Positions 24,942 to 35,979 of a stretch of 64,000 bases of DNA are shown one piece after another (position 1 is the first letter of the stretch; the number at the start of each line of letters is the position of its first letter). A program made the position numbers and the translations under genes. The notes below the pieces were generated by a model that saw only the letters and a program-made list of their open reading frames with translations, did no database searches and had not been told where the DNA came from. Source of the stretch: a virus; the IMG/VR virus record IMGVR_UViG_3300023184_003735, positions 60,184-124,183 of that record; one strand, written 5' to 3'.

Positions 24942-25063
24942 ATTTTCTCCTTGATTAATGAAACTCAGTGTTTGTACTGAGTCATTATTATATAGCATAG
25001 GAGATGTCTAAGTCAAGGCATTTTGCCATTGATTTTTTCTATGTTGACAATTGATTTTGTAAA

Positions 25064-25372
25064 TTATGTAGGATCAACTTGAGAACTGGTTATGTTACCA
25101 GGATAAGTTAAAGAGGTTGGCACGGTTTGCATTGTTTCAAGCCAGGCATTGGCAATTTCCAATGTGTCCCAGGAACGCACTACAGTTCTTGTACCAGTAT
25201 CATAATCTATGGTTTCACTAACAAGATTGTCTGTATCTGTTGGTATTCCTTGCGATTGAAAAAATTCAAGTAATGGTGGTTTTGATTTCAATGTAAATTC
25301 TCTCACCGTTTCGGCCATGACTTCTTGAGAATCTTGATAGGTAAATCTAAAAACTACGGTAGTTGTTGGCAT
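25064..25372 (-). CDS. Hypothetical protein
   Basis: SD AAGGAGG; TATAAATA late-type motif at 25397-25404. Confidence 0.7.
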   Translation of the reverse strand: MPTTTVVFRFTYQDSQEVMAETVREFTLKSKPPLLEFFQSQGIPTDTDNLVSETIDYDTGTRTVVRSWDTLEIANAWLETMQTVPTSLTYPGNITSSQVDPT

Positions 25373-25405
25373 ATTAGCCTCCTTAAGTTGATCATGTATT
25401 TATAC

Positions 25406-25482
25406 TGGCCGGCCCTGAGGGACTCGAACCCCCAACCTCCAGTTTCGAAGACTGGCACTCTAATCCATTGAGTTAAGGACCG
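25406..25482 (-). tRNA. tRNA-Arg(TCG)
   Basis: Cloverleaf; CCAGT-CT TCG AA-ACTGG; encoded CCA. Confidence 0.9.
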
Positions 25483-25488
25483 TTTTGT

Positions 25489-25562
25489 TGGTGCTCCTAA
25501 CTGGTAACGATCCAGTGTTTCTACATTACCAATGCCGTGTAATGCTATTATACTATGAGAGC
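25489..25562 (-). tRNA. tRNA-Thr(GGT)
   Basis: TT GGT AA loop; atypical T-loop ATCGTTA; CCA. Confidence 0.82.
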
Positions 25563-25565
25563 AAT

Positions 25566-25639
25566 TGGAGCGGGATAGGAGAATCGAACTCCTACGATAA
25601 CCTTGGCAAGGTCACAGGCAACCATTACATCAATCCCGC
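25566..25639 (-). tRNA. tRNA-Gly(GCC)
   Basis: GCGGGAT acceptor, TT GCC AA, TCCA end. Confidence 0.9.
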
Positions 25640-25645
25640 CTAAAC

Positions 25646-26116
25646 TTACGCTGCCAAACTCTTGAATCTATCTGCGGCGTAACTGGCTGCAAATGCTTGG
25701 GGTTTGACAAAAGGTATCACATTACATGTACCTTTGATGTATCCAATGGCTTGTGAAATTACACAACTTGATCCGTGCATTTCGTTGGGATTGATGTCCA
25801 GGTGAACCTCAACTTCTCGCCCTTCTAGTACCTCTGCCAGTTTAAGGTACAATTCGCTCACTTTGTATACTTCGGTCATCAAACGTAAACTAGGGCGACT
25901 GGCCTTCTGGTCCCAGTCGCGTTCACGTTGTACTTCGCCAAACAGTTTGCAACCGTTGTTGCCATTGATATGGACCACAATAGCCAGCACATAATCGGCA
26001 TGCCAGGCACCTTCTACTTTGACACGTTCACTATCGCAACCAAGATAGATTTTTGTTTCAGGTGTTTGGGCCCGGATAAATTCTGCCACTTGGTCAATGT
26101 CTAGTTTTTTCATCAT
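25646..26116 (-). CDS. RNase H-like YkuK/DUF458 family protein
   Basis: IYLGCDS, RLMTEV, EVHLDIN, KPQAFAASYAAD. Confidence 0.8.
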   Translation of the reverse strand: MMKKLDIDQVAEFIRAQTPETKIYLGCDSERVKVEGAWHADYVLAIVVHINGNNGCKLFGEVQRERDWDQKASRPSLRLMTEVYKVSELYLKLAEVLEGREVEVHLDINPNEMHGSSCVISQAIGYIKGTCNVIPFVKPQAFAASYAADRFKSLAA

Positions 26117-26156
26117 TTGCCTTTTATTTAACTCTATAAACATTACGGTTTTATTA

Positions 26157-26233
26157 TGGTGCCCCAAGAGAGACTCGAACTCTCAAAATTTGGCTTTTAA
26201 GACCAACACGTATACCAATTCCGTCATCGGGGC
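26157..26233 (-). tRNA. tRNA-Leu(TAA), short variable loop
   Basis: TTGGT-CT TAA AA-GCCAA; CCA. Confidence 0.87.
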
Positions 26234-26241
26234 AAAAATAC

Positions 26242-26315
26242 TGGCACGGGAACTAGGGCTCGAACCTAGAATGACAGAGTCAAAGTCTGTAGTGTTACCA
26301 TTACACCATTCCCGA
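26242..26315 (-). tRNA. tRNA-Gln(TTG)
   Basis: ACAGA-CT TTG AC-TCTGT; GCCA. Confidence 0.9.
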
Positions 26316-26325
26316 ACAAAAATCT

Positions 26326-26400
26326 TGGTGGATGAGAGTAGAGTCGAACTACCACCGGACTCCGTATGAAGGAGGGGCACTACCATTATGCTACTCATCC
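26326..26400 (-). tRNA. tRNA-Met(CAT), probably elongator
   Basis: GGATGAG/CTCATCC acceptor, TT CAT AC loop. Confidence 0.85.
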
Positions 26401-26401
26401 T

Positions 26402-26483
26402 TGGTACCCCTGCCCCGACTCGAACGGGGATATCATACTCCTCTGTTTGAGAGAGGCGACTTTACCAATTTGTCCACAGGGGC
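26402..26483 (-). tRNA. tRNA-Leu(CAA)
   Basis: CCTCT-CT CAA AC-AGAGG; ACCA. Confidence 0.88.
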
Positions 26484-26488
26484 CGACT

Positions 26489-26565
26489 TGGGGTGCATGA
26501 TGGGATTCGAACCCACGAGTATCGGAATCACAATCCGAGGTCTTGACCGCTTGACGACACGCACC
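26489..26565 (-). tRNA. tRNA-His(GTG) with encoded G-1
   Basis: TCGGA-TT GTG AT-TCCGA; CCCA end. Confidence 0.9.
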
Positions 26566-26644
26566 ATACAAAAACACACTGCCTCTCTTTATGGTCGGAG
26601 CCCATGGTAAAGACGTCGCTCCTCGGCAGTGTGTTTTTGTATGG
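26564..26644 (-). ncRNA. Long-stem structured RNA cassette (20-bp perfect terminal helix)
   Basis: CCATACAAAAACACACTGCC / GGCAGTGTGTTTTTGTATGG enclosing 41 nt. Confidence 0.55.
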
Positions 26645-26669
26645 TAGGGGCACAGAGAATCGAACTCTA
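26642..26669 (-). pseudogene. tRNA 3' remnant (T-arm + acceptor strand + CCA)
   Basis: TAGAGTTCGATTCTCTGTGCCCCTACCA with no matching 5' half; overlaps HNH stop. Confidence 0.75.
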
Positions 26670-27248
26670 CTTCTCTAACAATCTTTTTGCTCTGGAATAG
26701 TTGTTACCCTTTGCCGCAATTCCTGCTTTGAGCAAACCTTGTCTTATACTACTGGTTTCTTTAAGACATTGTAGTAAAAATTCATCGGTTACTACATTTA
26801 CGCCGTTTTTAGAAGGTTTGTTTCGTCCCCTCCATGTATCAGTGATACTATGGCAGTTTGGGCACAGTCCTTCTAAATTTTCTCTAGTATTGTTTTGATT
26901 GTTGCCATCTTTGTGCTCAAGTTCAAGTGGAATTTTGAACCCCTGCCACTCACTTACGCCACATTTATTACAGCAATGATTTTGTTCTTCAAATACTCTG
27001 CGTCGTCTGTTTTCCATACCTAATTCAGAAAATGGAGTAGCATTATATTTGTCTAGCCACGCCTGTTTGATATTTGCTCTCCATTGATCTACATCAGAGA
27101 TAAGTCCACGTGTACTAGGCTTTCCCTTTAATGCAATACTTTTTTTACGTTTACTTTCATCGGAAAACTCCCGACTATTAGCACATGTTCTAGAACAAAA
27201 TGTTCCAGATTTGCTATGTTCTGTTTTACACTTAGGACATTGTTTCAT
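26667..27248 (-). mobile_element. HNH homing endonuclease in the tRNA array
   Basis: N-terminal CPKC/FCSRTC zinc finger; CNKC...LELEHKDGNNQNNTRENLEGLCPNCH. Confidence 0.88.
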
Positions 27249-27308
27249 ATCGAACCCTATTAAATTATAGAAGTATTTAGTAGAGTTCCATATAAAACAA
27301 CTCATAAA

Positions 27309-27382
27309 TGGTGAGACCGGAAGGTACTGCCCCTTCTTAGTCGGATTAAAAGTCCGATACTTTACTTTTAAGTTACGATCCC
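27309..27382 (-). tRNA. tRNA-Lys(TTT), atypical T-loop GGCAGTA
   Basis: TCGGA-CT TTT AA-TCCGA; GGGATCG/CGGTCTC acceptor; ACCA. Confidence 0.8.
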
Positions 27383-27412
27383 ACTAATCTTATCACTCTT
27401 GTCACTAGTCAT
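27368..27412 (-). CDS. Putative mini-ORF MTSDKSDKISGIVT running into tRNA-Lys
   Basis: Strong SD AAGGAGA upstream; stop inside tRNA D-arm. Confidence 0.4.
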   Translation of the reverse strand: MTSDKSDKISGIVT

Positions 27413-27434
27413 GACACTTCTCCTTAGAAAAAAT

Positions 27435-27509
27435 TGGTGCCGCCGGGTGGGAACGATCCACCGACCCTTGCCTTATCAAGACAATGCTCTACCACTGAGC
27501 TACGGAGGC
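27435..27509 (-). tRNA. tRNA-Ile(GAT)
   Basis: TTGTC-TT GAT AA-GGCAA; ACCA. Confidence 0.88.
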
Positions 27510-27673
27510 TATAAATATGCGTATGATTACCGCTGACAATGCCATGATATTCTTGTACCAGGCGGCACAAGGCACTTATCAACAACGATTTTATTCTACT
27601 ACCACACGCAGGTTCACTCTTGATACCATGCTGATCAATCCACGGAAAGAGTTTAAAATTGATACTACGTTTG

Positions 27674-27749
27674 TGGTGCCTCCTCCAGGTTCCGACCCTG
27701 GTTCCCCGGATTTTCAGTCCGGTGCTATGACCACATCAGCTAAAGAGGC
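27674..27749 (-). tRNA. tRNA-Phe(GAA)
   Basis: CCGGA-CT GAA AA-TCCGG; ACCA. Confidence 0.88.
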
Positions 27750-27754
27750 ATAAT

Positions 27755-27830
27755 TGGTACATCCTGACGGGCTCGAACCGCCGACAGCCTCGGTGTAAGC
27801 GAGGAACTCTACCAACTGAGTTAAGGATGC
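27755..27830 (-). tRNA. tRNA-Val(TAC)
   Basis: CCTCG-CT TAC AC-CGAGG; ACCA. Confidence 0.9.
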
Positions 27831-27835
27831 ATGTT

Positions 27836-27928
27836 TGGCGGAAGACGGAGGAGTCGAACCCCATCCCATTTTGTGAGAACCTGGTTTTCAAGGCCAGTCG
27901 CGGCACCAACGCCACTGCATCATCTTCC
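27836..27928 (-). tRNA. tRNA-Ser(TGA), probable 8/4 fold
   Basis: CT TGA AA loop, long variable arm, GGAAGATG/CGTCTTCC acceptor, GCCA. Confidence 0.85.
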
Positions 27929-27934
27929 TGAATT

Positions 27935-28012
27935 TGGAGCAACGGGCTGGATTCGAACCAGCGGCTTTTGGGATTTGCAATCCCATGCATTGGGCCACTC
28001 TGCCACCGTTGC
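27935..28012 (-). tRNA. tRNA-Cys(GCA)
   Basis: TGGGA-TT GCA AA-TCCCA; TCCA. Confidence 0.9.
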
Positions 28013-28016
28013 ATAT

Positions 28017-28094
28017 TGGTCGGAATGGTGGGATTCGAACTCACGACCCTCTGCTCCCAAAGCAGATGCGCTAACCAGACTGCGCTACACTCCG
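28017..28094 (-). tRNA. tRNA-Pro(TGG)
   Basis: CGGAGTG start, TT TGG GA loop. Confidence 0.92.
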
Positions 28095-28330
28095 AATTTT
28101 TTCTTGATCCACATACCAAACAGTGTGCCACAGTAGGCACCTGCTAGAGCAGGTATCAAGGCCCAATGGTCTTCTGTGTAGTTGATTACTGCTACACTGG
28201 CTGTGAAGGTCACTGCCATGCTCCACCACGCGGCCATTAAGGGACGATTGTCTTGAATTGATTTCACAAAGTAAACGTAAATCAAGTCAGTTGCAAATAC
28301 TGCAAAAAAAGTTATGATATAAGCCCACAT
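28085..28330 (-). CDS. Small membrane protein (3 TM)
   Basis: Hydrophobic; stop codon lies inside tRNA-Pro 5' end. Confidence 0.65.
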   Translation of the reverse strand: MWAYIITFFAVFATDLIYVYFVKSIQDNRPLMAAWWSMAVTFTASVAVINYTEDHWALIPALAGAYCGTLFGMWIKKKFGV

Positions 28331-28331
28331 A

Positions 28332-28562
28332 TTATTTCTTCTTGTCTAGTGTGGGTTCTTGCGGGTTGTCTAATTCATGCGGTTCAGCGAATCTTGCGTT
28401 GCCACCGATGCCTTTCCAACTGTCTTCTGTGAAGATTCTGATGGGTCGCCAGTATCGAGCAATGATATTGTTGATCACCACAAGTGCAATTACCACGGCT
28501 ATAAAGCCCAGTGCTGTCAAAATGCTACCGGCTAAAAATACTGCCGCTTGATCCATGTCCAT
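28332..28562 (-). CDS. Single-TM membrane protein
   Basis: SD AAGGA; N-terminal hydrophobic helix. Confidence 0.65.
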   Translation of the reverse strand: MDMDQAAVFLAGSILTALGFIAVVIALVVINNIIARYWRPIRIFTEDSWKGIGGNARFAEPHELDNPQEPTLDKKK

Positions 28563-28578
28563 ATGTTTTTCCTTTGAG

Positions 28579-28652
28579 TGGAGCGGGATAGCGGAATCGA
28601 ACCGCTGACACTAACTTGGAAGGATAGGGTAATACCATTTTACGAATCCCGC
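28579..28652 (-). tRNA. tRNA-Gly(TCC)
   Basis: GCGGGAT acceptor, CT TCC AA loop. Confidence 0.88.
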
Positions 28653-28675
28653 TCTTATACATTACAATGTATGCT

Positions 28676-28751
28676 TGGTGCCCCCACCATGATTCGAACA
28701 CGGCACCTACTGATTACAAATCAGTTGCTCTACCGAATGAGCTATAGGGGC
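28676..28751 (-). tRNA. tRNA-Thr(TGT)
   Basis: ACTGA-TT TGT AA-TCAGT. Confidence 0.92.
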
Positions 28752-28757
28752 AAATTT

Positions 28758-28833
28758 TGGCTCTCTAGCGTGGGCACGATCCACGGACCTAACGGTTAAC
28801 AGCCGTTTGCTCTACCAACTGAGCTACTAGAGA
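28758..28833 (-). tRNA. tRNA-Asn(GTT)
   Basis: AACGG-CT GTT AA-CCGTT; GCCA. Confidence 0.9.
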
Positions 28834-29027
28834 ATAATTTCAACTGACTTGGCGTCTTGATCACGTATGGCCCACTCAGTGCTACCCACACGTATGTGTA
28901 GACAACAGGCCCCGCGTCGTAACACAGTCACAGTTCGTGTGGCAACAATGCCCATTTGCTGTAGTCGTTCGTTAGTGACGCCGGCTATCACAGCCTGGTC
29001 ATGCGTTTTTAAGTCGTTCAATGTCAT
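28827..29027 (-). CDS. feoA: FeoA-like SH3-domain protein
   Basis: MTLNDL...ERLQQMGI...VTVLRR...LHIRVGSTEWAIRDQDAKSV follows FeoA pattern. Confidence 0.7.
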   Translation of the reverse strand: MTLNDLKTHDQAVIAGVTNERLQQMGIVATRTVTVLRRGACCLHIRVGSTEWAIRDQDAKSVEIIL

Positions 29028-29033
29028 ATGCTT

Positions 29034-29123
29034 TGGCGGAGCGTTAGGGAGTCGAACCCTATCAACCACTTTCATGATTGTACGGATTAGCAATCCGCTG
29101 CCTTACCATCCGGCCCACGCTCC
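29034..29123 (-). tRNA. tRNA-Ser(GCT)
   Basis: TT GCT AA loop, long variable arm, GCCA. Confidence 0.9.
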
Positions 29124-29131
29124 TCTATAGT

Positions 29132-29160
29132 ATTATATAGTCAACGTGTGACCATGTCAA
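29132..29160 (-). promoter_or_regulatory. Consensus sigma70 promoter TTGACA-N17-TATAAT inside tRNA array
   Basis: Perfect boxes, just upstream of tRNA-Ser(GCT). Confidence 0.8.
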
Positions 29161-29168
29161 CAACAATT

Positions 29169-29253
29169 TGGTGGAGATGACTTGAGTCGAACAAGTAGTG
29201 CCAGGGGCGGCTGATTTACAGTCAGCTGGGGTTACCAATTTTCCTACATCTCC
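29169..29253 (-). tRNA. tRNA-Tyr(GTA)
   Basis: GCTGA-CT GTA AA-TCAGC; variable arm; ACCA. Confidence 0.9.
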
Positions 29254-29257
29254 AATT

Positions 29258-29332
29258 TGGTGGACCGTCCCGGGTTCGAACCGGGGACTGAGGCTTGCAA
29301 AGCCACTGTGTTCCCAACTATACCAACAGCCC
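29258..29332 (-). tRNA. tRNA-Ala(TGC)
   Basis: G3:U70, TT TGC AA loop. Confidence 0.9.
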
Positions 29333-29339
29333 AAATTTT

Positions 29340-29416
29340 TGGCGACCCCGAAAGGATTTGAACCTCTGACATTTGGTTTTGGAGACCAACGTTCTGCCGG
29401 ACTGAACTACGGAGCC
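29340..29416 (-). tRNA. tRNA-Trp(CCA)
   Basis: TTGGT-CT CCA AA-ACCAA; GCCA. Confidence 0.9.
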
Positions 29417-29437
29417 ATAACGCACTCTTGCGAATGC

Positions 29438-29520
29438 GTGTATCGAAGCACACCAAGGTCACAAACCCCGACCGTTCATGGCCGCACGAACCTTTTCGGT
29501 ACTGGTATGCTTCGATACAC
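29438..29520 (-). ncRNA. Long-stem multibranch RNA cassette
   Basis: 18-bp helix GTGTATCGAAGCATACCA/TGGTGTGCTTCGATACAC enclosing three small hairpins. Confidence 0.55.
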
Positions 29521-29610
29521 TCGGATTTTTTTATGTACAAGAACATAAGCCATCCCCGAGGCCGCCCATTTGCAGTTTTGAGTGTTGCAGGCTCGCGTTG
29601 CCTTGCACTA

Positions 29611-29645
29611 AATGAAAAACCCTGGAGTTTTAATTCCAGGGTCCT
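29611..29645 (-). terminator. Attenuator terminator 1 (CCCTGGA/TCCAGGG + TTTTTCATTT)
   Basis: GC hairpin + U-tract; its 5' arm can alternatively pair with the end of the leader ORF. Confidence 0.75.
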
Positions 29646-29671
29646 TGGTGTGAATACGGTTGTATACTATG

Positions 29672-29785
29672 TTAGGACCCTGTGTCTCCTGGAATGCTTG
29701 CTGTCAAGCGACCATAGACATGTGACCAGGCGGATGTCTGATTAAACATTGTCTTGGGTAGCGATAAACAGAGTTGCGTTTTCAT
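29672..29785 (-). CDS. Putative leaderless leader peptide 1 (37 aa, MKTQLCLSLPKTMFNQTSAWSHVYGRLTASIPGDTGS)
   Basis: ATG 7 nt after TATAAT; ends in antiterminator strand. Confidence 0.6.
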   Translation of the reverse strand: MKTQLCLSLPKTMFNQTSAWSHVYGRLTASIPGDTGS

Positions 29786-29792
29786 AGTATCA

Positions 29793-29821
29793 ATTATAGT
29801 TTATTTATCATCTCGTGTCAA
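29793..29821 (-). promoter_or_regulatory. sigma70 promoter TTGACA-N17-TATAAT with ATAAATA in the spacer
   Basis: Perfect boxes and spacing. Confidence 0.8.
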
Positions 29822-29865
29822 CCACGACATGCTCTTTCTGTGTTATTTATACAACACAGTTGAAT

Positions 29866-29939
29866 TGGATGCGGGTGACAGATTCGAACTGCCGATGCAC
29901 CTGGCTTATGAGACCGGTGTGGTGGCCACCCTACCCGCG
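29866..29939 (-). tRNA. tRNA(CAT), initiator-like (C1:A72) with shortened D-arm
   Basis: CGCGGGT/ACCCGCA acceptor, CT CAT AA loop, TTCGAAT T-loop. Confidence 0.72.
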
Positions 29940-29980
29940 ATAATATTATTTATAAATTATAAAACAAATAAAATTATTTG

Positions 29981-30835
29981 TCAACCAGGATACAAATTTT
30001 CTTCACTGTCAAATTTGTAGTCGTCTGGCAATACCACCTTGGTTGAGTGGTCAATCAACTCGGCTAACTGGGCGGTGGGTACTCCGGTGACTCTAATTTG
30101 TCTTCTCCTAGAGGTGCAAATTGGAACACCATGCAAAAAATAATCACTATGCAAGTATACCGGATCGTTTGTGGTAAACACTTTTTTGTTGTCATCTCCA
30201 TCCAGTGCCCACCATAGCGGAACACCGCCATCACTGATGTTTAATGCAACGATCACATGACCTTGCTGATATAATCCATTTTCGGCACCAGCATTTTTAG
30301 CGAAAGGCAAACCAGCATCAGCAGAATATCTTGCATCACGATGTATGTTACTGAAACTTCCTGGTGCCAAACTCACACAGTGTATGTTCACAATTCGTTT
30401 AAATGGCAATTGCTTCAAAATAAATTCTACAATTTTTAAATGTTTAAATTCGGGTTTTATTTTATAAAGTCTGTTCAAATGATGATTGCGCATGCAAGAC
30501 CCACCTTCTCCAGCATTACGTTTTACAAAATCGCTATCTGATTCAATAGTGATAAGTTCTAGCAGTTGATTCATTTCAAAGCCAGAAATCCCACGAATTT
30601 CTTCAGTGTATTGTCCAGAATTACCAATTTCTATCGACACGTTCATTTTATCATACAAGATTGGATCTATCATTCCCCATGCCCGATTGAGATTACGAGT
30701 ACCATCTAAAGTTTGCCGGCGTGTACATATAGAGTGCGAAGTTGGTAAAATATATTGGTCATACTCTTCGACAAAGAGTTTGTGGTCAAAGTCGAGATTG
30801 AGTTTTGCGTAAGCAAGATTTGCAAATTGGTGCAT
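29981..30835 (-). CDS. Hypothetical protein, possible 2OG-Fe(II) oxygenase/cupin fold
   Basis: HRD...LHGV...RRQIR pattern. Confidence 0.55.
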   Translation of the reverse strand: MHQFANLAYAKLNLDFDHKLFVEEYDQYILPTSHSICTRRQTLDGTRNLNRAWGMIDPILYDKMNVSIEIGNSGQYTEEIRGISGFEMNQLLELITIESDSDFVKRNAGEGGSCMRNHHLNRLYKIKPEFKHLKIVEFILKQLPFKRIVNIHCVSLAPGSFSNIHRDARYSADAGLPFAKNAGAENGLYQQGHVIVALNISDGGVPLWWALDGDDNKKVFTTNDPVYLHSDYFLHGVPICTSRRRQIRVTGVPTAQLAELIDHSTKVVLPDDYKFDSEENLYPG

Positions 30836-30912
30836 GTTTTTAGTAGTAGATATTTTGAAATCCAACAAGTGGAGTTTCTATTGAAAGTACTATATTTAGT
30901 TCAATTGATAAT

Positions 30913-32364
30913 TCATTGATCATGTTTTTCTAATTCGGGCACAAAATCTTTAAGTTTTACTCCACGACTATTATCAAGTACACGATTAAATTCAAAAAAT
31001 TTTTTTAAACTTTCAGTATCGGGTAGTGAATTTTTTACTTGAATTTCAATTCTATCAATTGTGGTTTTAAAATACTGATCTTGCTGATATCTCTTTAGTT
31101 GTTTGATCAACTGTAAATTGTCAAGAATTGTTTGTGGCTCGGGATGATTCCAAGGCGATTGATCAGGTTCTACGCCAGCAACAAGATTCATGGAACAATG
31201 AACTTTTAAATATTTGTCATCTAAGAAATTATAAAGATCAAACAGGTGTGCAATATTATAGATACTGATCACAGTATTGAAGTTTGCAACACGACCCATA
31301 TCATAAAGTGTAGCAACATTGCGACACCAGTTGTCCCATTTGATAGGCCATCTAATGTAGCGATTTAATTGATCAAATCCGTCTACACTCACACTAAATT
31401 CTAGATTAGGAAATTTGTTACAGTAGTCTAACATCTGAGTTGATAAGACTGATGCATTGGTGCTGACTTCAAATGCAATATCATTGCGTTGCTTTTCAAT
31501 GCATTGGTCAAGGAATTGAAAAAATTCCTTGTTTATAGTGGGCTCTCCTCCGGCTATTTGTAGACATCGCACATGGTCAATGTCAACGTGATCAAAAATA
31601 CCTTGTTTTTTGTGATTAGTATAGTTTGATAGACCAATTGCTCTATATTCTCTAGCAATGAGATGCGAATTGCCAGGAACACACATTCGACACATTGCAT
31701 TACAACGATTGTCTAATACCGCATATACATACAATGGTGAAGGTACAGTTGTTACATCTTGTTGCGTTTTAATATTAAACTTGCTACTCCAAGTTTGAGT
31801 AAAATTTTGTCTTTGACTGGTCATTCCTAGATCTTCTTTTTGCCAACAATGACTGCATTCATCAACACGTTTTCCCTGCAACATACTCTGTTTTACGGAC
31901 TGGCTCCATGATGCATCAAATTTATCAGATGGTCTTGATTGCATGTGACAGCAATGACTTTTTTGCTTTTGTGTTTGGTATAGCCCAACGAATGGTACAA
32001 TGCAAAAGGCTGGATTAGTATGTAATTCTTTTAGAATCCATGGTACCAAGTCGGGATTTTGATATTCCACTACAAAAGATTTTTGTAAGTCAAATATCAT
32101 GCTGATTGTTATTGCAAAATCTTCAGCATTATTGTAAGATTCTTGATCTTGATCTAACAATATAATTTTGCATGATTTACCATACAACAGGGTCTGCAAC
32201 TCAGCCGGTGTTATATCGTATATACTGGTATGATAGACACCAGAAGATAAGTTTGTATTTCGATCCAATACTAATTTATATTCAAGATCGTGTTGTTGTG
32301 CAATTTTTTGTGTAATTTTGTGTGCTATTTTATTGCCTGTGCCCACACATACAATTAGATTCAT
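30913..32364 (-). CDS. Radical SAM protein with N-terminal twitch/SPASM-like domain
   Basis: FCIVPF..HCC..CSHCW, CNAMCRMC, GGEPT, STNAS, SVDG..YIRW. Confidence 0.87.
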   Translation of the reverse strand: MNLIVCVGTGNKIAHKITQKIAQQHDLEYKLVLDRNTNLSSGVYHTSIYDITPAELQTLLYGKSCKIILLDQDQESYNNAEDFAITISMIFDLQKSFVVEYQNPDLVPWILKELHTNPAFCIVPFVGLYQTQKQKSHCCHMQSRPSDKFDASWSQSVKQSMLQGKRVDECSHCWQKEDLGMTSQRQNFTQTWSSKFNIKTQQDVTTVPSPLYVYAVLDNRCNAMCRMCVPGNSHLIAREYRAIGLSNYTNHKKQGIFDHVDIDHVRCLQIAGGEPTINKEFFQFLDQCIEKQRNDIAFEVSTNASVLSTQMLDYCNKFPNLEFSVSVDGFDQLNRYIRWPIKWDNWCRNVATLYDMGRVANFNTVISIYNIAHLFDLYNFLDDKYLKVHCSMNLVAGVEPDQSPWNHPEPQTILDNLQLIKQLKRYQQDQYFKTTIDRIEIQVKNSLPDTESLKKFFEFNRVLDNSRGVKLKDFVPELEKHDQ

Positions 32365-32374
32365 TATAAATTTT

Positions 32375-32766
32375 GCTCGGTTAAATGCTCTGACATCCCT
32401 CGGCGGTAATTATAGAGCATTGAGTGATAGTCTTTCCACTACACACCGCAACTTGTACTCCTTCCACCCGCTTCCCGACAGGGACCGTTCTCGTATTGCT
32501 AACGCCGGTTAGGTTAGACCGCATCTTTCGATGTGAGACTTATATTCCAAATCTCAGAACCACCCGTGCTTGTCACAGCACTTCTCATCGTCTGGGTCAG
32601 ACTATCCAGTGACGCTGGAACGTTAGGGAAGGGCTGGCCCCATAACGGGATACCACTTAGCCTTACTTATCTGTCGCGTTGGAGTAAGGCACCCTAATTA
32701 GGAGAGAAGCCACGGTTGCAGGACCTAGTGCCTTTTGCAAGGGAAGTATCCAGGCGGTGTGGCTTC
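32375..32766 (-). ncRNA. Candidate large structured ncRNA downstream of tRNA-Asp
   Basis: GC-rich, no credible ORF, several helices and a likely 3' pseudoknot. Confidence 0.5.
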
Positions 32767-32773
32767 AAAAACT

Positions 32774-32848
32774 TGGCGGTCCGAACGGGAATCGAACCCG
32801 TCTCCTCGCAGTGACAGTGCGAAATACTAACCGATATACTATCGAACC
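32774..32848 (-). tRNA. tRNA-Asp(GTC)
   Basis: TCGCA-CT GTC AC-TGCGA; GCCA. Confidence 0.92.
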
Positions 32849-32850
32849 AA

Positions 32851-33006
32851 ATGTTATAGTCAAGCACCGAGAATGCCAATTTATGCGTCCTCCGCTAAGA
32901 GTGCAAAAGCCGAATGCAGTTATATTAGGATCAGTCGCCGGCCGCTGTGACCCGAATAGTGTTGGCGTCCCATACACGATACCTTATCGATGCTTGACTA
33001 TAACAT
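32851..33006 (-). ncRNA. Long-stem RNA cassette
   Basis: ATGTTATAGTCAAGCATCGA/TCGGTGCTTGACTATAACAT 20-bp helix around ~115 nt. Confidence 0.55.
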
Positions 33007-33007
33007 T

Positions 33008-33132
33008 TACCATATAGAAGCACTCTCGCCAGCAGGCCTAGGAGGGGACTTGCACCACTGAAACTTTCGCATCTGCAGATACTAGGCTTCTTCTCCTGCT
33101 TTGACTTATGCCAAGAATACTTCTATATGGTA
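33008..33132 (-). ncRNA. Long-stem RNA cassette beginning at tRNA-Glu CCA
   Basis: TACCATATAGAAGTATTCTTG/CGAGAGTGCTTCTATATGGTA helix with G-U pairs. Confidence 0.55.
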
Positions 33133-33203
33133 CTCCGTGGGGGAATCGAACCCCTCCTTACCCGCGTGAAAGGCGAGTGTCCTAACCGATAGACGAACGG
33201 AGC
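33128..33203 (-). tRNA. tRNA-Glu(TTC)
   Basis: CTCGC-CT TTC AC-GCGGG; ACCA. Confidence 0.92.
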
Positions 33204-33212
33204 ATGTAGTTT

Positions 33213-33416
33213 TACATTGAGGAATCATTGTGGATCTTGTTCTGCTTGGCTTGCGAGGCCAAGTCACCACGATCATTACATCCAGACGATCCGCCGCTTT
33301 TCCGGATCACTTCGCAAGGAAGGAGAGCCTATTTCATGACTGATAGCAGATGGGCACCCGCCGATGCCGGATTCATCTCTACCAATGCCACTAACGGGTC
33401 TGGTAACCTCTTTGTA
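33213..33416 (-). ncRNA. Candidate ~200-nt structured ncRNA upstream of tRNA-Glu
   Basis: Nested helices CCAGAC/GTCTGG, GATCCG/CGGATC, CTTGGC/GCCAAG, terminal GAGG/CCTC. Confidence 0.45.
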
Positions 33417-33473
33417 TATTTTAAAGATCTGTTGCAACCAGTATCGATCTACTTTGTTGCTTTGTTAAGTTCT

Positions 33474-33502
33474 ATTGTAGCAGAGTTCCATTTATTGGTC
33501 TA
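33474..33502 (-). promoter_or_regulatory. sigma70-like promoter TAGACC-N17-TACAAT
   Basis: Variant of the repeated TTGACCAATAA..TGCTAyAAT motif. Confidence 0.55.
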
Positions 33503-33508
33503 GCACTA

Positions 33509-33541
33509 AATGAAAAACCCTCCAAATTGGAGGGCCTTTAG
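33509..33541 (-). terminator. Attenuator terminator 2 (CCCTCCA/TGGAGGG + TTTTTCATTT)
   Basis: Same architecture and tail as terminator 1. Confidence 0.75.
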
Positions 33542-33559
33542 TGATGTAGTACAAAATAC

Positions 33560-33637
33560 TTACATCCAAAGACCCTGCAGGCAATCGCGCTCGTGTTCTG
33601 AACGGAAAGTGTTAGCGATTGCGTTTATTGTCATCAT
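33560..33637 (-). CDS. Putative leaderless leader peptide 2 (25 aa, MMTINAIANTFRSEHERDCLQGLWM)
   Basis: ATG 6 nt after TACAAT; ends in antiterminator strand. Confidence 0.58.
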   Translation of the reverse strand: MMTINAIANTFRSEHERDCLQGLWM

Positions 33638-33643
33638 AGTGTT

Positions 33644-33672
33644 ATTGTATACGATTATTTATACTTTGTCAA
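33644..33672 (-). promoter_or_regulatory. sigma70 promoter TTGACA-N17-TACAAT with TATAAATA in the spacer
   Basis: Boxes and spacing seen directly. Confidence 0.78.
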
Positions 33673-34829
33673 CGAAAATAATTTTGGATTTTGCCAGATC
33701 TGCTGATGTCGTTTGTGACACAATGAATGCCGCAATCCCAGAAATATTTGTGACGGAACGGCACCACATGCACTTCGATGCCATGTCGTGCGCAGGCCTT
33801 CTCTACCTGGTCGTTGTGTGTGCTGACCACAATGTTCTTGGGATCCACTATCAGGATGTTGACGTCGAACACAGTTTCACTAACCTGTCCCACCCACTCG
33901 TCAAAGTAGTGATCCACCATGTGAACCAAGTTGTTGTCCTGTTCAAACCCGGGCATGAACCAACGTCCCTTGTTGCGTTTCATGGAGTACTCAAACTCGC
34001 GCATGTGTGCGTAGTTGCTGGGTGGCAGGTACACCACTTCCCAGTCTGGGAAGGTGTCAGCATAGGTGGGAACATCATTGAGGCTGATGATCAGACCCGG
34101 CGTCACTGGGCAATACACCGCATCACCGTGCCCACCTGAATTGACCACTCTATTTTGAGTTGTAGGAAACAACTGATTCACTTGATCTAGTATGCCTTGT
34201 TTGTCATCATGATAGGTTTGTGTGGCAAAGTACAAGTCCTCACCTATGCGACTCACAAAACAGCCGTTGATGAAATCAAGATCAGTTGACACAATCTCAT
34301 TGCCCTGCGCCTTGATGTCCGCAAACACATGAGAATAAAACCCCAACTTGGCGTCTAGATGCGCTTGATCAGTCTGATTGAATCTAGCAAACTTGGCCTG
34401 TACCTCTTCGGCAAACTCAGGATAGTCTGCATAAAAATCCGCAGGACGTATGTGGTCGTTCCACCAAGGCTGTTTGTTCTGTCGGTAAAACACTGACCAT
34501 GCATGACTGGCATTGGGAATTCGGGGAACCCAAAATCTGTCCTGAATCATCAAAAAGTAATCTCTTGGTGCTGTGGGCGGTTGCACCCACTTGTTATCTA
34601 TGTACAGTTGGGACAAGTCCGTGGGAAACTCCGGACGCATCACACGCACACCAAATCGATCTGTCAACAGTCGTATGAGTCGTTGATAGTCTTCTTCGGT
34701 CTCTTGTGCAAGAGTTTCAAAGCGTTCTCGGGTGGCAGAGTTCTTGATCCAACTGTAGAACTCTGGGGGATAAGTGCGACCCACTAATGAGACTTGTAGT
34801 GGATCCCAGTGTTGATATACTGAATACAT
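33669..34829 (-). CDS. Second amidinotransferase
   Basis: HWDPLQVSLVG, APRD, GHGD, ETVFDVN, CGIHCVT; paralog of 5469-6506. Confidence 0.82.
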   Translation of the reverse strand: MYSVYQHWDPLQVSLVGRTYPPEFYSWIKNSATRERFETLAQETEEDYQRLIRLLTDRFGVRVMRPEFPTDLSQLYIDNKWVQPPTAPRDYFLMIQDRFWVPRIPNASHAWSVFYRQNKQPWWNDHIRPADFYADYPEFAEEVQAKFARFNQTDQAHLDAKLGFYSHVFADIKAQGNEIVSTDLDFINGCFVSRIGEDLYFATQTYHDDKQGILDQVNQLFPTTQNRVVNSGGHGDAVYCPVTPGLIISLNDVPTYADTFPDWEVVYLPPSNYAHMREFEYSMKRNKGRWFMPGFEQDNNLVHMVDHYFDEWVGQVSETVFDVNILIVDPKNIVVSTHNDQVEKACARHGIEVHVVPFRHKYFWDCGIHCVTNDISRSGKIQNYFR

Positions 34830-34874
34830 AGATAGACTTTTTGATAGTCTACTATATATTGATATCGCTTTGGG

Positions 34875-35039
34875 TCAAGGCTTTTTGACTCGATTGCAAG
34901 CAGGATCTTTACAAGCAGTGATTCGTTTGCGATCACAGTCGGGGCAGTCTCGGATTCGGACCCAGTTGGCGGGCATGAATCTTATGACCTCATTTTTTCC
35001 GGGTTTGTCCTGACTGTCACATTTGGTAGCATGTATCAT
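34875..35039 (-). CDS. Small Cys-rich protein
   Basis: SD AAGGAG; CPDC..C..C. Confidence 0.45.
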   Translation of the reverse strand: MIHATKCDSQDKPGKNEVIRFMPANWVRIRDCPDCDRKRITACKDPACNRVKKP

Positions 35040-35094
35040 CAATGTCTCCTTGACATACATATACAACGTGTTAGCCCGCAAAAGGGTTGACAAG

Positions 35095-35117
35095 AGAAAC
35101 CCGCCGAAGCGGGTTCT
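35095..35117 (-). terminator. Terminator after tmRNA
   Basis: AACCCGC-TTCG-GCGGGTT hairpin + TTCTCTT. Confidence 0.7.
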
Positions 35118-35274
35118 GGTGATTTCTGTTACGAGGTATTTCCTACCCTAGGCCGCTCACGCTGCCAAAGAATAAACGCTATCGTTTGCATTTACTAGTT
35201 TTGCTTGATTTACGGTCATCGCCTACCGAGCGCCATTACCCCTACTCTTTGCCCTGTCGAAACTATGCAGGCCC
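35118..35274 (-). ncRNA. ssrA: tmRNA coding piece (two-piece, permuted); tag ANDSVYSLAA* at 35189-35157
   Basis: 5' GGGCCTGCATAGTTTCGAC; resume context GTAAAT-GCA AAC GAT; tag ends LAA-TGA. Confidence 0.9.
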
Positions 35275-35275
35275 A

Positions 35276-35644
35276 TCATAAAGAAACTTGTTTGAGGTAT
35301 TGCTCACCTTCGCCAGTAACATACCAATACTCATTGTCATTGACAATGTATCCTAAATCTGCCAAACTATCCATAGCATTGTCAAAGGCTTGGGTGCGTG
35401 ACTCATCTTCTACATAGTCTAATCCTGACATGATGGCAGTATAGATTCCTTTTAGTATTAGAATTTTACCTAATCCTTTGCTTTGAAAGGTTGGATCTAA
35501 CTCTACTAAACTTCTTCCACTATCTGCATCGTATTGAAACGTTCCTGCATACTGCCCGTCAACATTCATTTCAACACCAATAGTATTACTACCTTTTGTT
35601 GTGTTAAAACTTAGTTTTGAACCGGCAATATCAGTAATACGCAT
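35276..35644 (-). CDS. GNAT-like protein encoded inside the tmRNA intervening segment
   Basis: SD AAGGAAG right after CCA; LDPTFQSKGLGK resembles acetyl-CoA motif A. Confidence 0.7.
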   Translation of the reverse strand: MRITDIAGSKLSFNTTKGSNTIGVEMNVDGQYAGTFQYDADSGRSLVELDPTFQSKGLGKILILKGIYTAIMSGLDYVEDESRTQAFDNAMDSLADLGYIVNDNEYWYVTGEGEQYLKQVSL

Positions 35645-35656
35645 CAAACTTCCTTA

Positions 35657-35720
35657 TGGTGGACCTGGGGGGATTCGCACCCCCGTCCAGAACACTTTTC
35701 TTGATAACAGTTTACGCTGT
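35657..35720 (-). ncRNA. ssrA: tmRNA acceptor piece (T-arm, acceptor 3' strand, CCA)
   Basis: TGTTCTGGACGGGGGTGCGAATCCCCCCAGGTCCACCA; pairs with GGGCCTG giving G3:U70; 5' end approximate. Confidence 0.88.
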
Positions 35721-35760
35721 TCAAGTATTTATTATACTATCAAATTGATTTGATGTCGAC

Positions 35761-35940
35761 CTATTTGGTACTCTGATTGCACGTGGCCACAATCTGTTTG
35801 TTTTGGGCCCGGAACTCTTCACGTTTCTGAACTCGGGCCTGCTCGCATTCCGCTTGGGTTTTGAACTTGGCTTGTTCGCCATACTCAGGCACTGGTCCCA
35901 AGACACTAAAACTCAACACCCAGATCAGAGTCCGGCTCAT
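35761..35940 (-). CDS. Small exported protein
   Basis: Hydrophobic N-terminus, FKTQAECEQA motif. Confidence 0.55.
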   Translation of the reverse strand: MSRTLIWVLSFSVLGPVPEYGEQAKFKTQAECEQARVQKREEFRAQNKQIVATCNQSTK

Positions 35941-35979
35941 AAACAATTCCCAAAACGGATTCAAGTCCGTGGGTAATAT

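What the first reader, a model, noticed from the sequence alone, without database searches (positions are those of the whole stretch)
26564..33132. Family of long-stem RNA cassettes between tRNAs sharing a TAT/TAC-Nx-AAGCA...TGCTT type helix
Seen: four cassettes with 18-21 bp terminal helices at 26564-26644, 29438-29520, 32851-33006 and 33008-33132. The tmRNA spacer has a similar helix. In three, G-U pairs work only on the minus (tRNA) strand, which points to RNA-level structure. Two start exactly at a tRNA CCA (CCATACAAAAACAC, CCATATAGAAGTATT). None has the short loop plus U-tract of a terminator, and the interiors differ. Inference: tRNA processing may release a set of stable small RNAs (decoys, guides, Y-RNA-like), or the stems are RNase III-type processing signals with variable cargo.
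Basis: partly seen in the sequence, partly recalled or inferred. Interest (0 to 1): 0.72.

Follow-up and report, generated by a model that had tools for sequence, protein, structure and literature searches.

The report
Clamped small RNAs between phage tRNAs
In the tRNA gene cluster of this uncultured lake phage, four small folded RNAs each sit inside a roughly 20-base-pair helix that touches the neighbouring tRNAs; related phages share the arrangement, phage T5 has it too, and its purpose is still unknown.

Summary
Four hairpin cassettes with closing helices of 19-21 pairs lie on the tRNA (minus) strand at the stated places. They are the four longest short-range inverted repeats in the 124-kb record.

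They are RNA-level elements. Wobble pairs fit the tRNA strand only, and the stems and interiors covary in relatives. C1 and C4 carry variants of one sequence-conserved clamp (CCAUAUAAAAACACAUU / AGUGUGUUUCUAUAUGG). This clamp starts on a tRNA CCA and ends in the next tRNA's first bases. An exact version of it occurs in at least 120 viral contigs around largely unrelated inner sequences. C3 and C4 hold conserved multi-helix cargo RNAs, and no Rfam family matches any cassette.

Closest known are the T5 stable RNAs RNAIII and RNAIV, which I show sit in 20-21-pair clamps of the same design.

Best guess, not shown: the clamps are double-strand processing sites for the host's RNase III. Cutting them would free the tRNA ends and release the cargo RNAs, whose functions are unknown.

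The remark about a similar helix in the tmRNA spacer was not confirmed.

This scan noted the same family earlier on other genomes.

The parts
26564..26643 (-). C1: class-A clamp (5' arm 26643-26624, 3' arm 26583-26564; 20 perfect pairs) around a 40-nt cargo. Its 3' arm ends on G-1/G+1 of tRNA-His.
   Evidence: Fold. Homologues in L001 and L152 have stem changes that keep the pairing and a nearly unchanged cargo.
26641..26668 (-). Remnant of tRNA-Lys(UUU) (T arm, 3' acceptor strand, CCA). Its CCA opens the C1 clamp. The stop codon of the HNH ORF (26667-27305) runs into it.
   Evidence: 100% identical over 28 nt to a sequence in 5 related loci, which in 4 of them is the 3' end of an ARAGORN-called tRNA-Lys(UUU). 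ORF. HNH families.
26489..26565 (-). tRNA-His (with G-1 at 26565), abutting the 3' arm of C1.
29438..29520 (-). C2: 19-pair clamp (5' arm 29520-29502, 3' arm 29456-29438, with G-U pairs) around a 45-nt cargo of two hairpins.
   Evidence: Fold. Homologue in L099 at 86% identity.
29521..29610 (-). Conserved leader upstream of C2, downstream of a terminator. It probably belongs to the same transcript as C2 and tRNA-Trp.
   Evidence: Alignment with L099. Sequence.
29340..29416 (-). tRNA-Trp, 21 nt downstream of C2. A small covarying hairpin lies between them.
32851..33006 (-). C3: 20-pair clamp (5' arm 33006-32987, 3' arm 32870-32851) around a conserved multi-helix cargo of about 115 nt. It ends 2 nt before tRNA-Asp.
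   Evidence: Fold. 19 homologous loci. Covariation. The same cargo sits in a different clamp in L133.
33008..33132 (-). C4: 21-pair class-A-type clamp (5' arm 33132-33112, starting on the UACCA of tRNA-Glu; 3' arm 33028-33008) around a conserved three-way-junction cargo of about 80 nt.
   Evidence: Fold. 11 homologous loci. Covariation. Relatives lack it at exactly this place.
33128..33203 (-). tRNA-Glu, whose 3' UACCA forms the first pairs of the C4 clamp.
32774..32848 (-). tRNA-Asp, 2 nt after C3.

Best explanation
The four cassettes belong to a widespread family of 'clamped' small RNAs carried in the polycistronic tRNA-island transcripts of a clade of uncultured freshwater phages (relatives of 320-347 kb).

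Each unit is a helix of about 18-22 pairs formed by the 5' and 3' flanks of an inner RNA (the cargo). In the commonest type the helix begins on the discriminator-CCA of the upstream tRNA and ends in the first bases of the downstream tRNA. tRNA, clamp and tRNA therefore form one continuous set of helices.

Shown: the helices are selected at the RNA level. C3 and C4 hold conserved, covarying structured RNAs. The clamp of C1 and C4 is conserved in sequence around interchangeable cargo.

Inferred: the clamp is a double-stranded processing site of about two helical turns, like the stalks that flank 16S and 23S rRNA. The host's RNase III would cut it, since no phage RNase III was found. The cut would free the paired CCA trailer and the paired 5' leader for exonucleases and RNase P. 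It would also release the cargo as a small RNA capped by the rest of the stem.

The functions of the cargo RNAs are unknown.
For: RNA-level selection:
- G-U 148 against A-C 32 in 59 distinct stems; 17 of the 30 class-A stems carry an A-C at position 8.
- C3: 99.5% of cells paired, 22 of 36 pairs compensated, 0 of 500 shuffles, and slid controls 33-47% paired.
- L133 keeps the C3 cargo in a wholly different but fully paired clamp.
- C4: 11 of 45 pairs compensated.

Geometry:
- The median stem is 20 pairs.
- Class-A clamps begin 3-7 nt inside the upstream tRNA. In most of them the 3' arm ends 2-5 nt inside the next tRNA.
- The best terminal helix of 470 inter-tRNA spacers is bimodal: a bulk at 5-11 pairs and 72 spacers (60 distinct) at 13-25 pairs.

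Specific to tRNA islands:
- 124 long hairpins in 335 kb of islands against 37 in 756 kb outside them; 52 of 69 loci have at least one.
- All four in this record lie in the island.

Precedent:
- T5 RNAIII and RNAIV, annotated as stable RNAs, lie in 20- and 21-pair clamps (z -6.7 and -5.7). The RNAIII clamp starts on the CCA of RNAI and ends in tRNA-His. The annotated ends of RNAIV lie inside its clamp with a 1-nt 3' overhang.
- A review states that E. coli RNase III takes part in T4 tRNA maturation (PMC4810235, passages read).

No phage enzyme: no RNase III domain in the record or in 5 relatives that are at least 92% complete.

Cargo looks functional rather than filler: cargo GC is 51% against 43% for the genome, and the mean fold z of 37 short cargos is -0.62.
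Against: - No cleavage or RNA-end data exist for these phages. Only contigs of RNA-labelled libraries could be laid, and contigs cannot show ends.
- The annotated ends of T5 RNAIII are equally explained by RNase P at tRNA-His plus a single-strand cut after the CCA of RNAI. I could not verify that the T5 ends were mapped by experiment.
- The class-A clamp is conserved in sequence, not only in pairing, and it often carries an A-C mismatch at position 8. A generic RNase III site does not need either feature.
- 398 of 470 inter-tRNA spacers of 40-450 nt have no terminal clamp, so clamps are not a general requirement for spacer RNA.
- In the complete relative G005 only 2 of 7 long hairpins lie in the island.
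Confidence: 0.45

Rival explanations
1. The clamp is a folding insulator and end-protector and is not cut. The long helix lets each cargo and each neighbouring tRNA fold independently in a dense polycistronic transcript. RNase P, RNase E and exonucleases do all the cutting at the helix base. The intact clamp then shields the released small RNA from exonucleases.
For: - The clamps abut the tRNA ends exactly.
- The annotated 3' end of T5 RNAIII coincides with the tRNA-His 5' end, and its 5' end lies 4 nt after the CCA of RNAI.
- The bases right after the CCA are AU-rich (UAUAAAAA). From my own knowledge, this resembles the sites where RNase E cuts tRNA trailers.
- In BUCT-ZZ01 a tRNA-His itself sits in a 13-pair leader-trailer helix.
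Against: - With the CCA and the 5' leader locked in a helix of about 20 pairs, exonucleases and the leader-binding part of RNase P would be hindered (inference).
- Insulation needs no particular length, yet stems cluster at 19-23 pairs.
- The annotated ends of T5 RNAIV lie 12-13 nt inside its clamp on both sides.
Confidence: 0.3
2. The clamp is a sequence-specific handle for a dedicated host or phage protein. It presents fast-changing small RNAs, for example decoys or inhibitors aimed at host RNA-targeting or tRNA-targeting defences.
For:
- In the 80 stored loci it encloses 67 distinct inner sequences in 53 clusters.
- An A-C mismatch is kept at position 8 in 17 of 30 class-A stems while the neighbouring position 7 covaries.
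- The canonical place is next to tRNA-Lys.
Against: - No partner protein was identified.
- The DUF458 (RNase H-like) gene inside the island is neither necessary nor sufficient. It sits in the tRNA island of phage DLP6, where no clamp abuts a tRNA. T5 has clamps but is not among the 76 phage records that hold the gene.
- Clamp sequence can be replaced completely around the same cargo (L133; class C RNA in at least 5 different clamps).
- Recombination within the conserved tRNAs and clamp arms could swap cargo without any special machinery.
Confidence: 0.15
3. The cassettes are DNA-level elements: miniature inverted-repeat transposons, invertible segments, or recombination or homing sites. Their RNA fold is incidental.
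For: - They have terminal inverted repeats around variable interiors.
- Cassettes are present or absent precisely. C4 is missing between tRNA-Glu and C3 in L081 and L099, and in contigs of three runs.
- Cassette order is shuffled in L001.
- An HNH homing-type gene lies next to C1.
Against: - Non-Watson-Crick positions fit the tRNA strand as G-U far more often than the other strand (148 against 32).
- All 35 blastn matches of the four cassettes (C1 2, C2 1, C3 19, C4 12 plus a 33-nt partial) lie in the same orientation as the tRNAs, so there are no inversions.
- Interior helices covary.
- The exact clamp pattern occurs once in 185,579 prokaryote genomes, on a 1.5-kb contig of a metagenome-assembled genome.
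Confidence: 0.04

Closest known systems
Phage T5 stable RNAs RNAIII and RNAIV of the tRNA region (annotated 'stable RNA with unknown functions' in NC_005859)
   Same: - They are small non-tRNA RNAs on the tRNA strand inside a phage tRNA cluster.
- Extended by their flanks, RNAIII lies in a 20-pair perfect helix and RNAIV in a 21-pair helix, each around a multi-hairpin interior.
- The RNAIII clamp starts on the CCA of the preceding tRNA-like RNAI and ends in the 5' bases of tRNA-His. That is the same design and the same downstream tRNA as C1.
   Different: - No sequence similarity was seen. T5 is not among the megablast matches. No model-based search was done.
- The T5 clamps have different sequences.
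- No family of swapped cargo under one clamp is known for T5.
- T5 infects E. coli, and these phages are uncultured freshwater jumbo phages.
RNase III processing stalks of bacterial rRNA operons, and RNase III in T4 tRNA precursor maturation (the latter as stated in PMC4810235, passages read)
   Same: The 5' and 3' flanks pair over long range into roughly two helical turns around a stable RNA within a polycistronic precursor that also carries tRNAs.
   Different: The cargo here is 30-170 nt rather than rRNA. Cleavage is not shown. The commonest clamp is conserved in sequence and often has an A-C mismatch.
Phage T4 species 1 and species 2 RNAs (rnaC, rnaD)
   Same: They are small stable RNAs of unknown function that directly follow a tRNA in the phage tRNA cluster.
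   Different: As annotated, neither folds with a long closing helix. rnaC has a short tRNA-like end with a canonical T arm, and rnaD folds no better than shuffles (z -0.83).
GOLLD and ROOL ornate RNAs of phage tRNA islands
   Same: The genomic niche is the same. A relative (L088) carries a GOLLD RNA at 197.6 bits in the same island as a C3 homologue. Papers describe both classes as often lying near tRNA islands (PMC5737381 and bioRxiv 10.1101/2024.12.08.627333, passages read).
   Different: The cassettes are 80-160 nt, not 400-800 nt. No Rfam match to these families was found.
Bacterial Y RNAs (YrlA type)
   Same: They have a long terminal stem with a variable or tRNA-like module. 5 of 59 distinct cargos contain a T-arm-like hairpin against 0.34 expected.
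   Different: No Rfam match at E up to 1. No TROVE/Ro gene in this record or in 5 near-complete relatives. The stems are perfect helices without the bulged Ro-binding helix (that feature is from my own knowledge).

Membership tests
RNase III processing stalk (rRNA-operon type) | The 5' and 3' flanks of a stable RNA pair into about 20 or more base pairs of dsRNA within a polycistronic precursor | tested here: met
   19-21 pairs in all four cassettes. Median of 20 pairs in 59 distinct stems. Same strand and spacing as the tRNAs.
RNase III processing stalk (rRNA-operon type) | Staggered cleavage of the stalk by RNase III | not testable with these tools
   Only contigs of RNA-labelled libraries were available, and contigs cannot show ends.
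T5-type clamped stable RNAs (RNAIII, RNAIV) | A non-tRNA RNA on the tRNA strand of a phage tRNA cluster, closed by a long terminal helix that touches a CCA end and/or a tRNA 5' end | tested here: met
   Window. T5.
T5-type clamped stable RNAs (RNAIII, RNAIV) | Accumulates as a discrete stable RNA during infection | not testable with these tools
   Contigs of RNA-labelled runs cover homologues of C2 and C3. These runs hold relatives, and DNA carry-over cannot be excluded.
T5-type clamped stable RNAs (RNAIII, RNAIV) | Sequence or model homology to the T5 RNAs | tested here: inconclusive
   T5 is absent from the megablast matches of window 26000-34000. No distant or covariance-model search was run.
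Bacterial Y RNA (YrlA) | Partner Ro60/Rsr (TROVE) gene in the genome | tested here: not met
   0 of 1 (own record, 36% complete) and 0 of 5 relatives at 92-100% completeness. The control genomes gave matches.
Bacterial Y RNA (YrlA) | Match to a curated RNA family model | tested here: not met
   No Rfam 15 family overlaps any cassette at E up to 1.
Intrinsic terminator | Short GC-rich hairpin followed by a U-tract | tested here: not met
   The inner parts are 40-116 nt and no T-run follows. None of the 8 terminator-like sites in 25000-36000 coincides with a cassette.
Inverted-repeat DNA element (MITE or invertible segment) | Arm complementarity that is symmetric at the DNA level, and both orientations in populations | tested here: not met
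   G-U 148 against A-C 32. All blastn matches of the four cassettes are co-oriented with the tRNAs.
GOLLD / ROOL | Match to the Rfam models | tested here: not met
   for the window. GOLLD is found elsewhere in relative L088.

The most novel reading that the evidence does not exclude
The sequence-invariant clamp of about 18 pairs is a dedicated RNA 'socket'. It starts on a tRNA CCA and keeps an A-C mismatch at position 8. A specific factor recognises it, and phages use it to express and exchange a fast-diversifying repertoire of small RNAs. These would act as decoys or inhibitors against host defences that target tRNAs or sense phage RNA. On this reading the tRNA island is a modular RNA-cassette array, not only a tRNA supply.
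Probability: 0.15. Interest if true: 0.85.

Novelty: new variant of a known kind. Interest (0 to 1): 0.64.

Why it matters
Phage tRNA islands are under study as counter-defence and translation-support modules. They are also known to hold enigmatic RNAs such as GOLLD, ROOL and the T4 and T5 stable RNAs.

This finding adds three things:
- A common architecture: a two-turn helix that joins tRNA ends and encloses small RNAs.
- At least two new conserved structured RNAs in this window (the C3 and C4 cargos), plus a third of about 160 nt in relatives.
- A clamp that is invariant in sequence around dozens of unrelated cargos.

It also ties the long-unexplained T5 RNAIII and RNAIV to a large environmental family. 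It names tractable systems for a direct test of processing and function: T5 in E. coli, and phage BUCT-ZZ01 with the Synechococcus elongatus host named in its record.

Tried and rejected
1. RNA evidence. Three RNA-labelled runs (X19, X18, X20) and one DNA run (X2) were laid on 26400-33300, all as contigs.
- The RNA-labelled runs have depth over the tRNA and cassette bins. This includes a 104-nt contig on 29446-29549 over C2 and contigs on 32704-33017 over C3.
- They have none over the protein-coding bins 26862-27092, 28248-28478, 30096-30788 and 31251-32174, which X2 covers.
- I do not count this as expression. These runs share only 6-7% of the words, so they hold relatives. Conserved RNA genes pass the 88% likeness filter more easily than coding DNA, two of the runs are flagged as probably DNA, and contigs show no ends.
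- What can be said is that contigs in three runs join 33003 to 33127 and so lack C4 exactly.

2. Antisense or guide role. The longest exact matches of the four cargos elsewhere in the 124-kb record are 9-12 nt. Shuffled cargos give 10-16 nt.

3. Y-RNA reading. No Rfam match and no TROVE gene. No RtcB gene in the own record.

4. Phage-encoded RNase III. None in the own record or in 5 near-complete relatives.

5. The DUF458 (RNase H-like) gene at 25646-26167 as the cognate nuclease.
- It is PF04308 and phrog_11311, of unknown function, with no PDB sequence match.
- It sits inside tRNA islands in relatives and in phage DLP6.
- DLP6 shows no clamp abutting a tRNA, and T5 has clamps without the gene. 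No link is supported.

6. The tmRNA-spacer helix was not found.

7. Terminator, inverton and MITE readings are rejected.

8. tRNA-like cargo. Only 5 of 59 distinct cargos have a T-arm-like hairpin.

9. Host. The exact clamp pattern occurs once in 185,579 prokaryote genomes, on a 1.5-kb contig of a metagenome-assembled genome. That is too little to name a host. Relatives' tmRNAs match the betaproteobacterial model.

10. Literature.
- Full-text searches found no description of clamped cassettes between phage tRNAs.
- I read passages of PMC5737381, bioRxiv 10.1101/2024.12.08.627333, PMC10690425 and PMC4810235.
- PMC10690425 lists 8,495 candidate structured RNAs from the same viral collection. One of them sometimes overlaps a tRNA-Asp call. 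Its supplementary tables were not opened, so C3 or C4 may be listed there without a name that I could see.
- The original T5 papers were not in the library, so I could not check how the T5 RNA ends were determined.

11. The class C RNA of about 160 nt seen in relatives is absent from this record.

12. The strand-preference count (plus-longer 71 against minus-longer 50) is confounded by the conserved A-C at position 8 and was not used.

Full report
**Context**

The window is the 3' half of a 124,183-base virus record that is linear and about 36% complete by CheckV. Its GC content is 43%.

On the minus strand, 25.4-33.2 kb holds 23 ARAGORN tRNA genes. Rfam adds two more tRNAs. A circularly permuted tmRNA lies at 35148-35719. 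Consensus sigma-70 promoters on the same strand at 33672, 29984, 29821 and 29160 split the island into several transcription units.

Relatives are uncultured viral contigs of up to about 350 kb, many of them over 100 kb. The runs that hold the stretch are labelled as lake water, freshwater or other metagenomes. Five relatives are 92-100% complete at 320-347 kb.

**The observation**

All four cassettes fold as stated:
- C1 (26564-26644): 20 perfect pairs around 41 nt.
- C2 (29438-29520): 19 pairs around 45 nt.
- C3 (32851-33006): 20 pairs around about 116 nt.
- C4 (33008-33132): 21 pairs around 83 nt.

Fold z-scores run from -4.4 to -6.9, and none of 200 shuffles matches any of them.

In the whole record, 10 places carry an uninterrupted inverted repeat of at least 15 pairs within 320 bases. 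The four cassettes have 19-23 pairs and the other six have 15-16. Three other non-tRNA stretches of the island fold like shuffles.

C2, C3 and C4 need G-U pairs that exist only on the tRNA strand. No Rfam 15 family matches any cassette, even at E up to 1.

Three details needed correction:
- The CCA that opens C1 belongs to a 28-nt remnant of tRNA-Lys(UUU). The remnant is identical to a sequence in 5 related loci, and in 4 of them ARAGORN calls it as the 3' end of tRNA-Lys(UUU). It lies directly behind an inserted HNH endonuclease gene.
- C2 has no tRNA on its 5' side. A terminator and a conserved leader lie there.
- The tmRNA spacer has no comparable helix. It is filled by a 123-codon ORF.

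**Relatives**

Two protein anchors gave 160 viral loci. blastn found the following:
- C3 in 19 loci at 73-98% identity.
- C4 in 11 loci.
- C1 in 2 loci.
- C2 in 1 locus.

All matches are co-oriented with the tRNAs.

C3 always ends 3-5 nt before a tRNA: Asp in 8 loci and Cys in 5. C4 normally fills the gap from tRNA-Lys to tRNA-His or tRNA-Met exactly. It overlaps the Lys ACCA by 4 nt and the next tRNA by 2-3 nt.

In this window C4 instead follows tRNA-Glu. In L081 and L099, and in contigs of three sequencing runs, tRNA-Glu is followed directly by C3, with C4 precisely absent. In L001 the order is tRNA-Glu, C1, C4, C3.

So C1 is the local occupant of the canonical Lys-to-His slot, and whole cassettes are gained, lost and moved.

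**A family with one clamp and many cargos**

I took 470 same-strand inter-tRNA spacers of 40-450 nt and measured the best helix joining their two ends. The distribution is bimodal. The bulk lies at 5-11 pairs, and 72 spacers (60 distinct sequences) lie at 13-25 pairs.

The dominant class (class A) reads (U)ACCAUAUAAAAACACAUU ... AGUGUGUUUCUAUAUGGU(G/A). In 30 class-A stems, positions 5, 7, 11, 12, 14, 15, 16 and 18 covary. Position 8 is an A-C mismatch in 17 stems and a Watson-Crick pair in 11.

Over 59 distinct stems the non-Watson-Crick cells are G-U 148 times and A-C 32 times. The median stem is 20 pairs.

The arms of C1, C2, C3 and C4 are recognisable variants of this clamp. The AAACAC/GUGUUU and AAGCAC/GUGCUU forms differ by a compensated pair.

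In the 80 stored loci there are 85 matches with 67 distinct inner sequences in 53 clusters. The same pattern occurs once in 185,579 prokaryote genomes, on a 1.5-kb contig of a metagenome-assembled genome.

Across all clamp types, 59 distinct cargos fall into 41 blastn families, 35 of them singletons.

Long hairpins are 7.6 times denser inside the tRNA islands than outside: 124 in 335 kb against 37 in 756 kb. 52 of 69 loci have at least one. In the one complete relative that I scanned whole, only 2 of 7 long hairpins lie in the island of about 12 kb. That is still about 11 times the density elsewhere.

**The cargo**

C3 is a real structured RNA. In 16 sequences, 99.5% of cells pair, 22 of 36 pairs show compensation, 0 of 500 shuffles reach this, and slid controls give 33-47% pairing. 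L133 carries the same cargo in a completely different but fully paired clamp.

C4 is a three-way junction. 11 of its 45 pairs are compensated in 8 sequences.

A third RNA of about 160 nt (class C) sits in at least five different clamps between different tRNAs in relatives. It is absent from this record.

Short cargos are GC-rich for this genome (51% against 43%) and fold slightly better than shuffles (mean z -0.62, n = 37). 5 of 59 distinct cargos have a T-arm-like hairpin. None of the four window cargos is complementary to the rest of the record beyond chance.

**How it may work**

What is shown is an RNA-level helix of about two turns. It sequesters the upstream tRNA's CCA and the downstream tRNA's 5' leader, and it encloses a separate RNA.

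The best-supported reading is the one that holds for rRNA operons. The paired flanks form a double-strand processing site. Cutting it separates the units and lets exonucleases and RNase P finish the tRNA ends. The cargo would be released as a small RNA capped by the rest of the stem.

The enzyme would be the host's. Neither this record nor five near-complete relatives encode an RNase III domain. A review states that E. coli RNase III takes part in T4 tRNA maturation (PMC4810235).

This step is inferred. The main rival is a clamp that is never cut and acts as a folding insulator and end protector. The sequence invariance of the class-A clamp and its kept mismatch leave room for a specific binding factor. 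DNA-level readings fit poorly.

**Comparison with what is known**

Its record annotates RNAIII, RNAI, RNA1, RNA2H, RNAIV, RNA2, RNA3 and RNAX in the tRNA region. Five of these (RNAIII, RNAI, RNA2H, RNAIV and RNAX) are described as 'stable RNA with unknown functions', and RNA1, RNA2 and RNA3 as tRNA-like or putative tRNA-like RNAs.

My hairpin scan and folds give the following for T5:
- RNAIII lies in a 20-pair perfect helix (z -6.7). The helix starts on the CCA of RNAI and ends in the first bases of tRNA-His.
- RNAIV lies in a 21-pair helix (z -5.7) that extends 12-13 nt beyond both annotated ends.

These are the closest known relatives in design. No sequence similarity was seen.

T4 rnaC and rnaD occupy the same niche but have no long clamp.

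The cultured phage BUCT-ZZ01 has a Synechococcus elongatus PCC 7942 host according to its record. It carries class-A-like clamps after tRNA-Lys and before tRNA-Met.

GOLLD occurs in the same island in relative L088.

**Verdict**

The finding is real, non-random and conserved. The cassette idea is right.

It is a new variant of a known kind, the small stable RNAs of phage tRNA clusters. The new elements are a shared two-turn clamp joined to tRNA ends, an invariant clamp around interchangeable cargo, and at least two new conserved RNAs in this window.

The processing mechanism and all cargo functions remain untested.

Follow-up agents of this scan reached a similar reading on three other genomes. 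My scores rest on the tests above.

Noticed in passing
window 26641-27382 (-): An HNH endonuclease ORF (26667-27305) has replaced most of a tRNA-Lys(UUU), leaving its last 28 nt. Just upstream lies a second tRNA-Lys(UUU) (27312-27382). Rfam finds it and ARAGORN does not, and it has an unusual T loop (GGCAGUA). This looks like a homing cassette that carries its own variant tRNA.
   Followed up: partly
window 32375-32766 (-): A non-coding block of about 390 nt lies directly after tRNA-Asp. Parts of it are conserved in 24 related loci at 68-92% identity. It has no Rfam match. It is a candidate large structured RNA. In some relatives its 3' part lies just upstream of C3.
   Followed up: partly
window 33213-33470 (-): A non-coding stretch of about 260 nt upstream of tRNA-Glu is conserved in L081, L099 and L001 at 75-88% identity. 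The part I folded is no more stable than shuffles (z +0.99).
   Followed up: partly
window 33520-33672 and 29605-29821 (-): There are two units of the same design: a consensus promoter, a short ORF (25 and 37 codons) and a terminator. Each is followed by the shared motif GGGTTTTTCATTTAGTGC ahead of the RNA genes. Other first-reader notes read them as leader-peptide attenuators. I did not test that.
   Followed up: no
window 25646-26167 (-): A DUF458 (RNase H-like, PF04308) gene of unknown function sits inside the tRNA island. At least 594 relatives exist in viral contigs. It also lies inside the tRNA island of Stenotrophomonas phage DLP6.
   Followed up: partly
window 35148-35719 (-): The intervening segment of the two-piece (permuted) tmRNA is filled by a 123-codon ORF (35276-35647) that starts just after the acceptor piece's CCA.
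   Followed up: no
L088 1587-2052: A relative carries a GOLLD RNA (197.6 bits) with a tRNA inside it (1650-1721), in the same tRNA island as a C3 homologue.
   Followed up: no
L084, L087, L088, L089, L093, L095, L098, L099, L108, L111, L158 (for example L099 10782-10980): A conserved RNA of about 160 nt (class C) sits in at least five different clamps between different tRNA pairs. No Rfam match appears among the rows shown for the loci scanned, and it is absent from this record.
   Followed up: partly
L163 171-270 (phage BUCT-ZZ01): A tRNA-His gene is itself enclosed by a 13-pair helix of leader and trailer, so a clamp can also hold a tRNA as its cargo.
   Followed up: no
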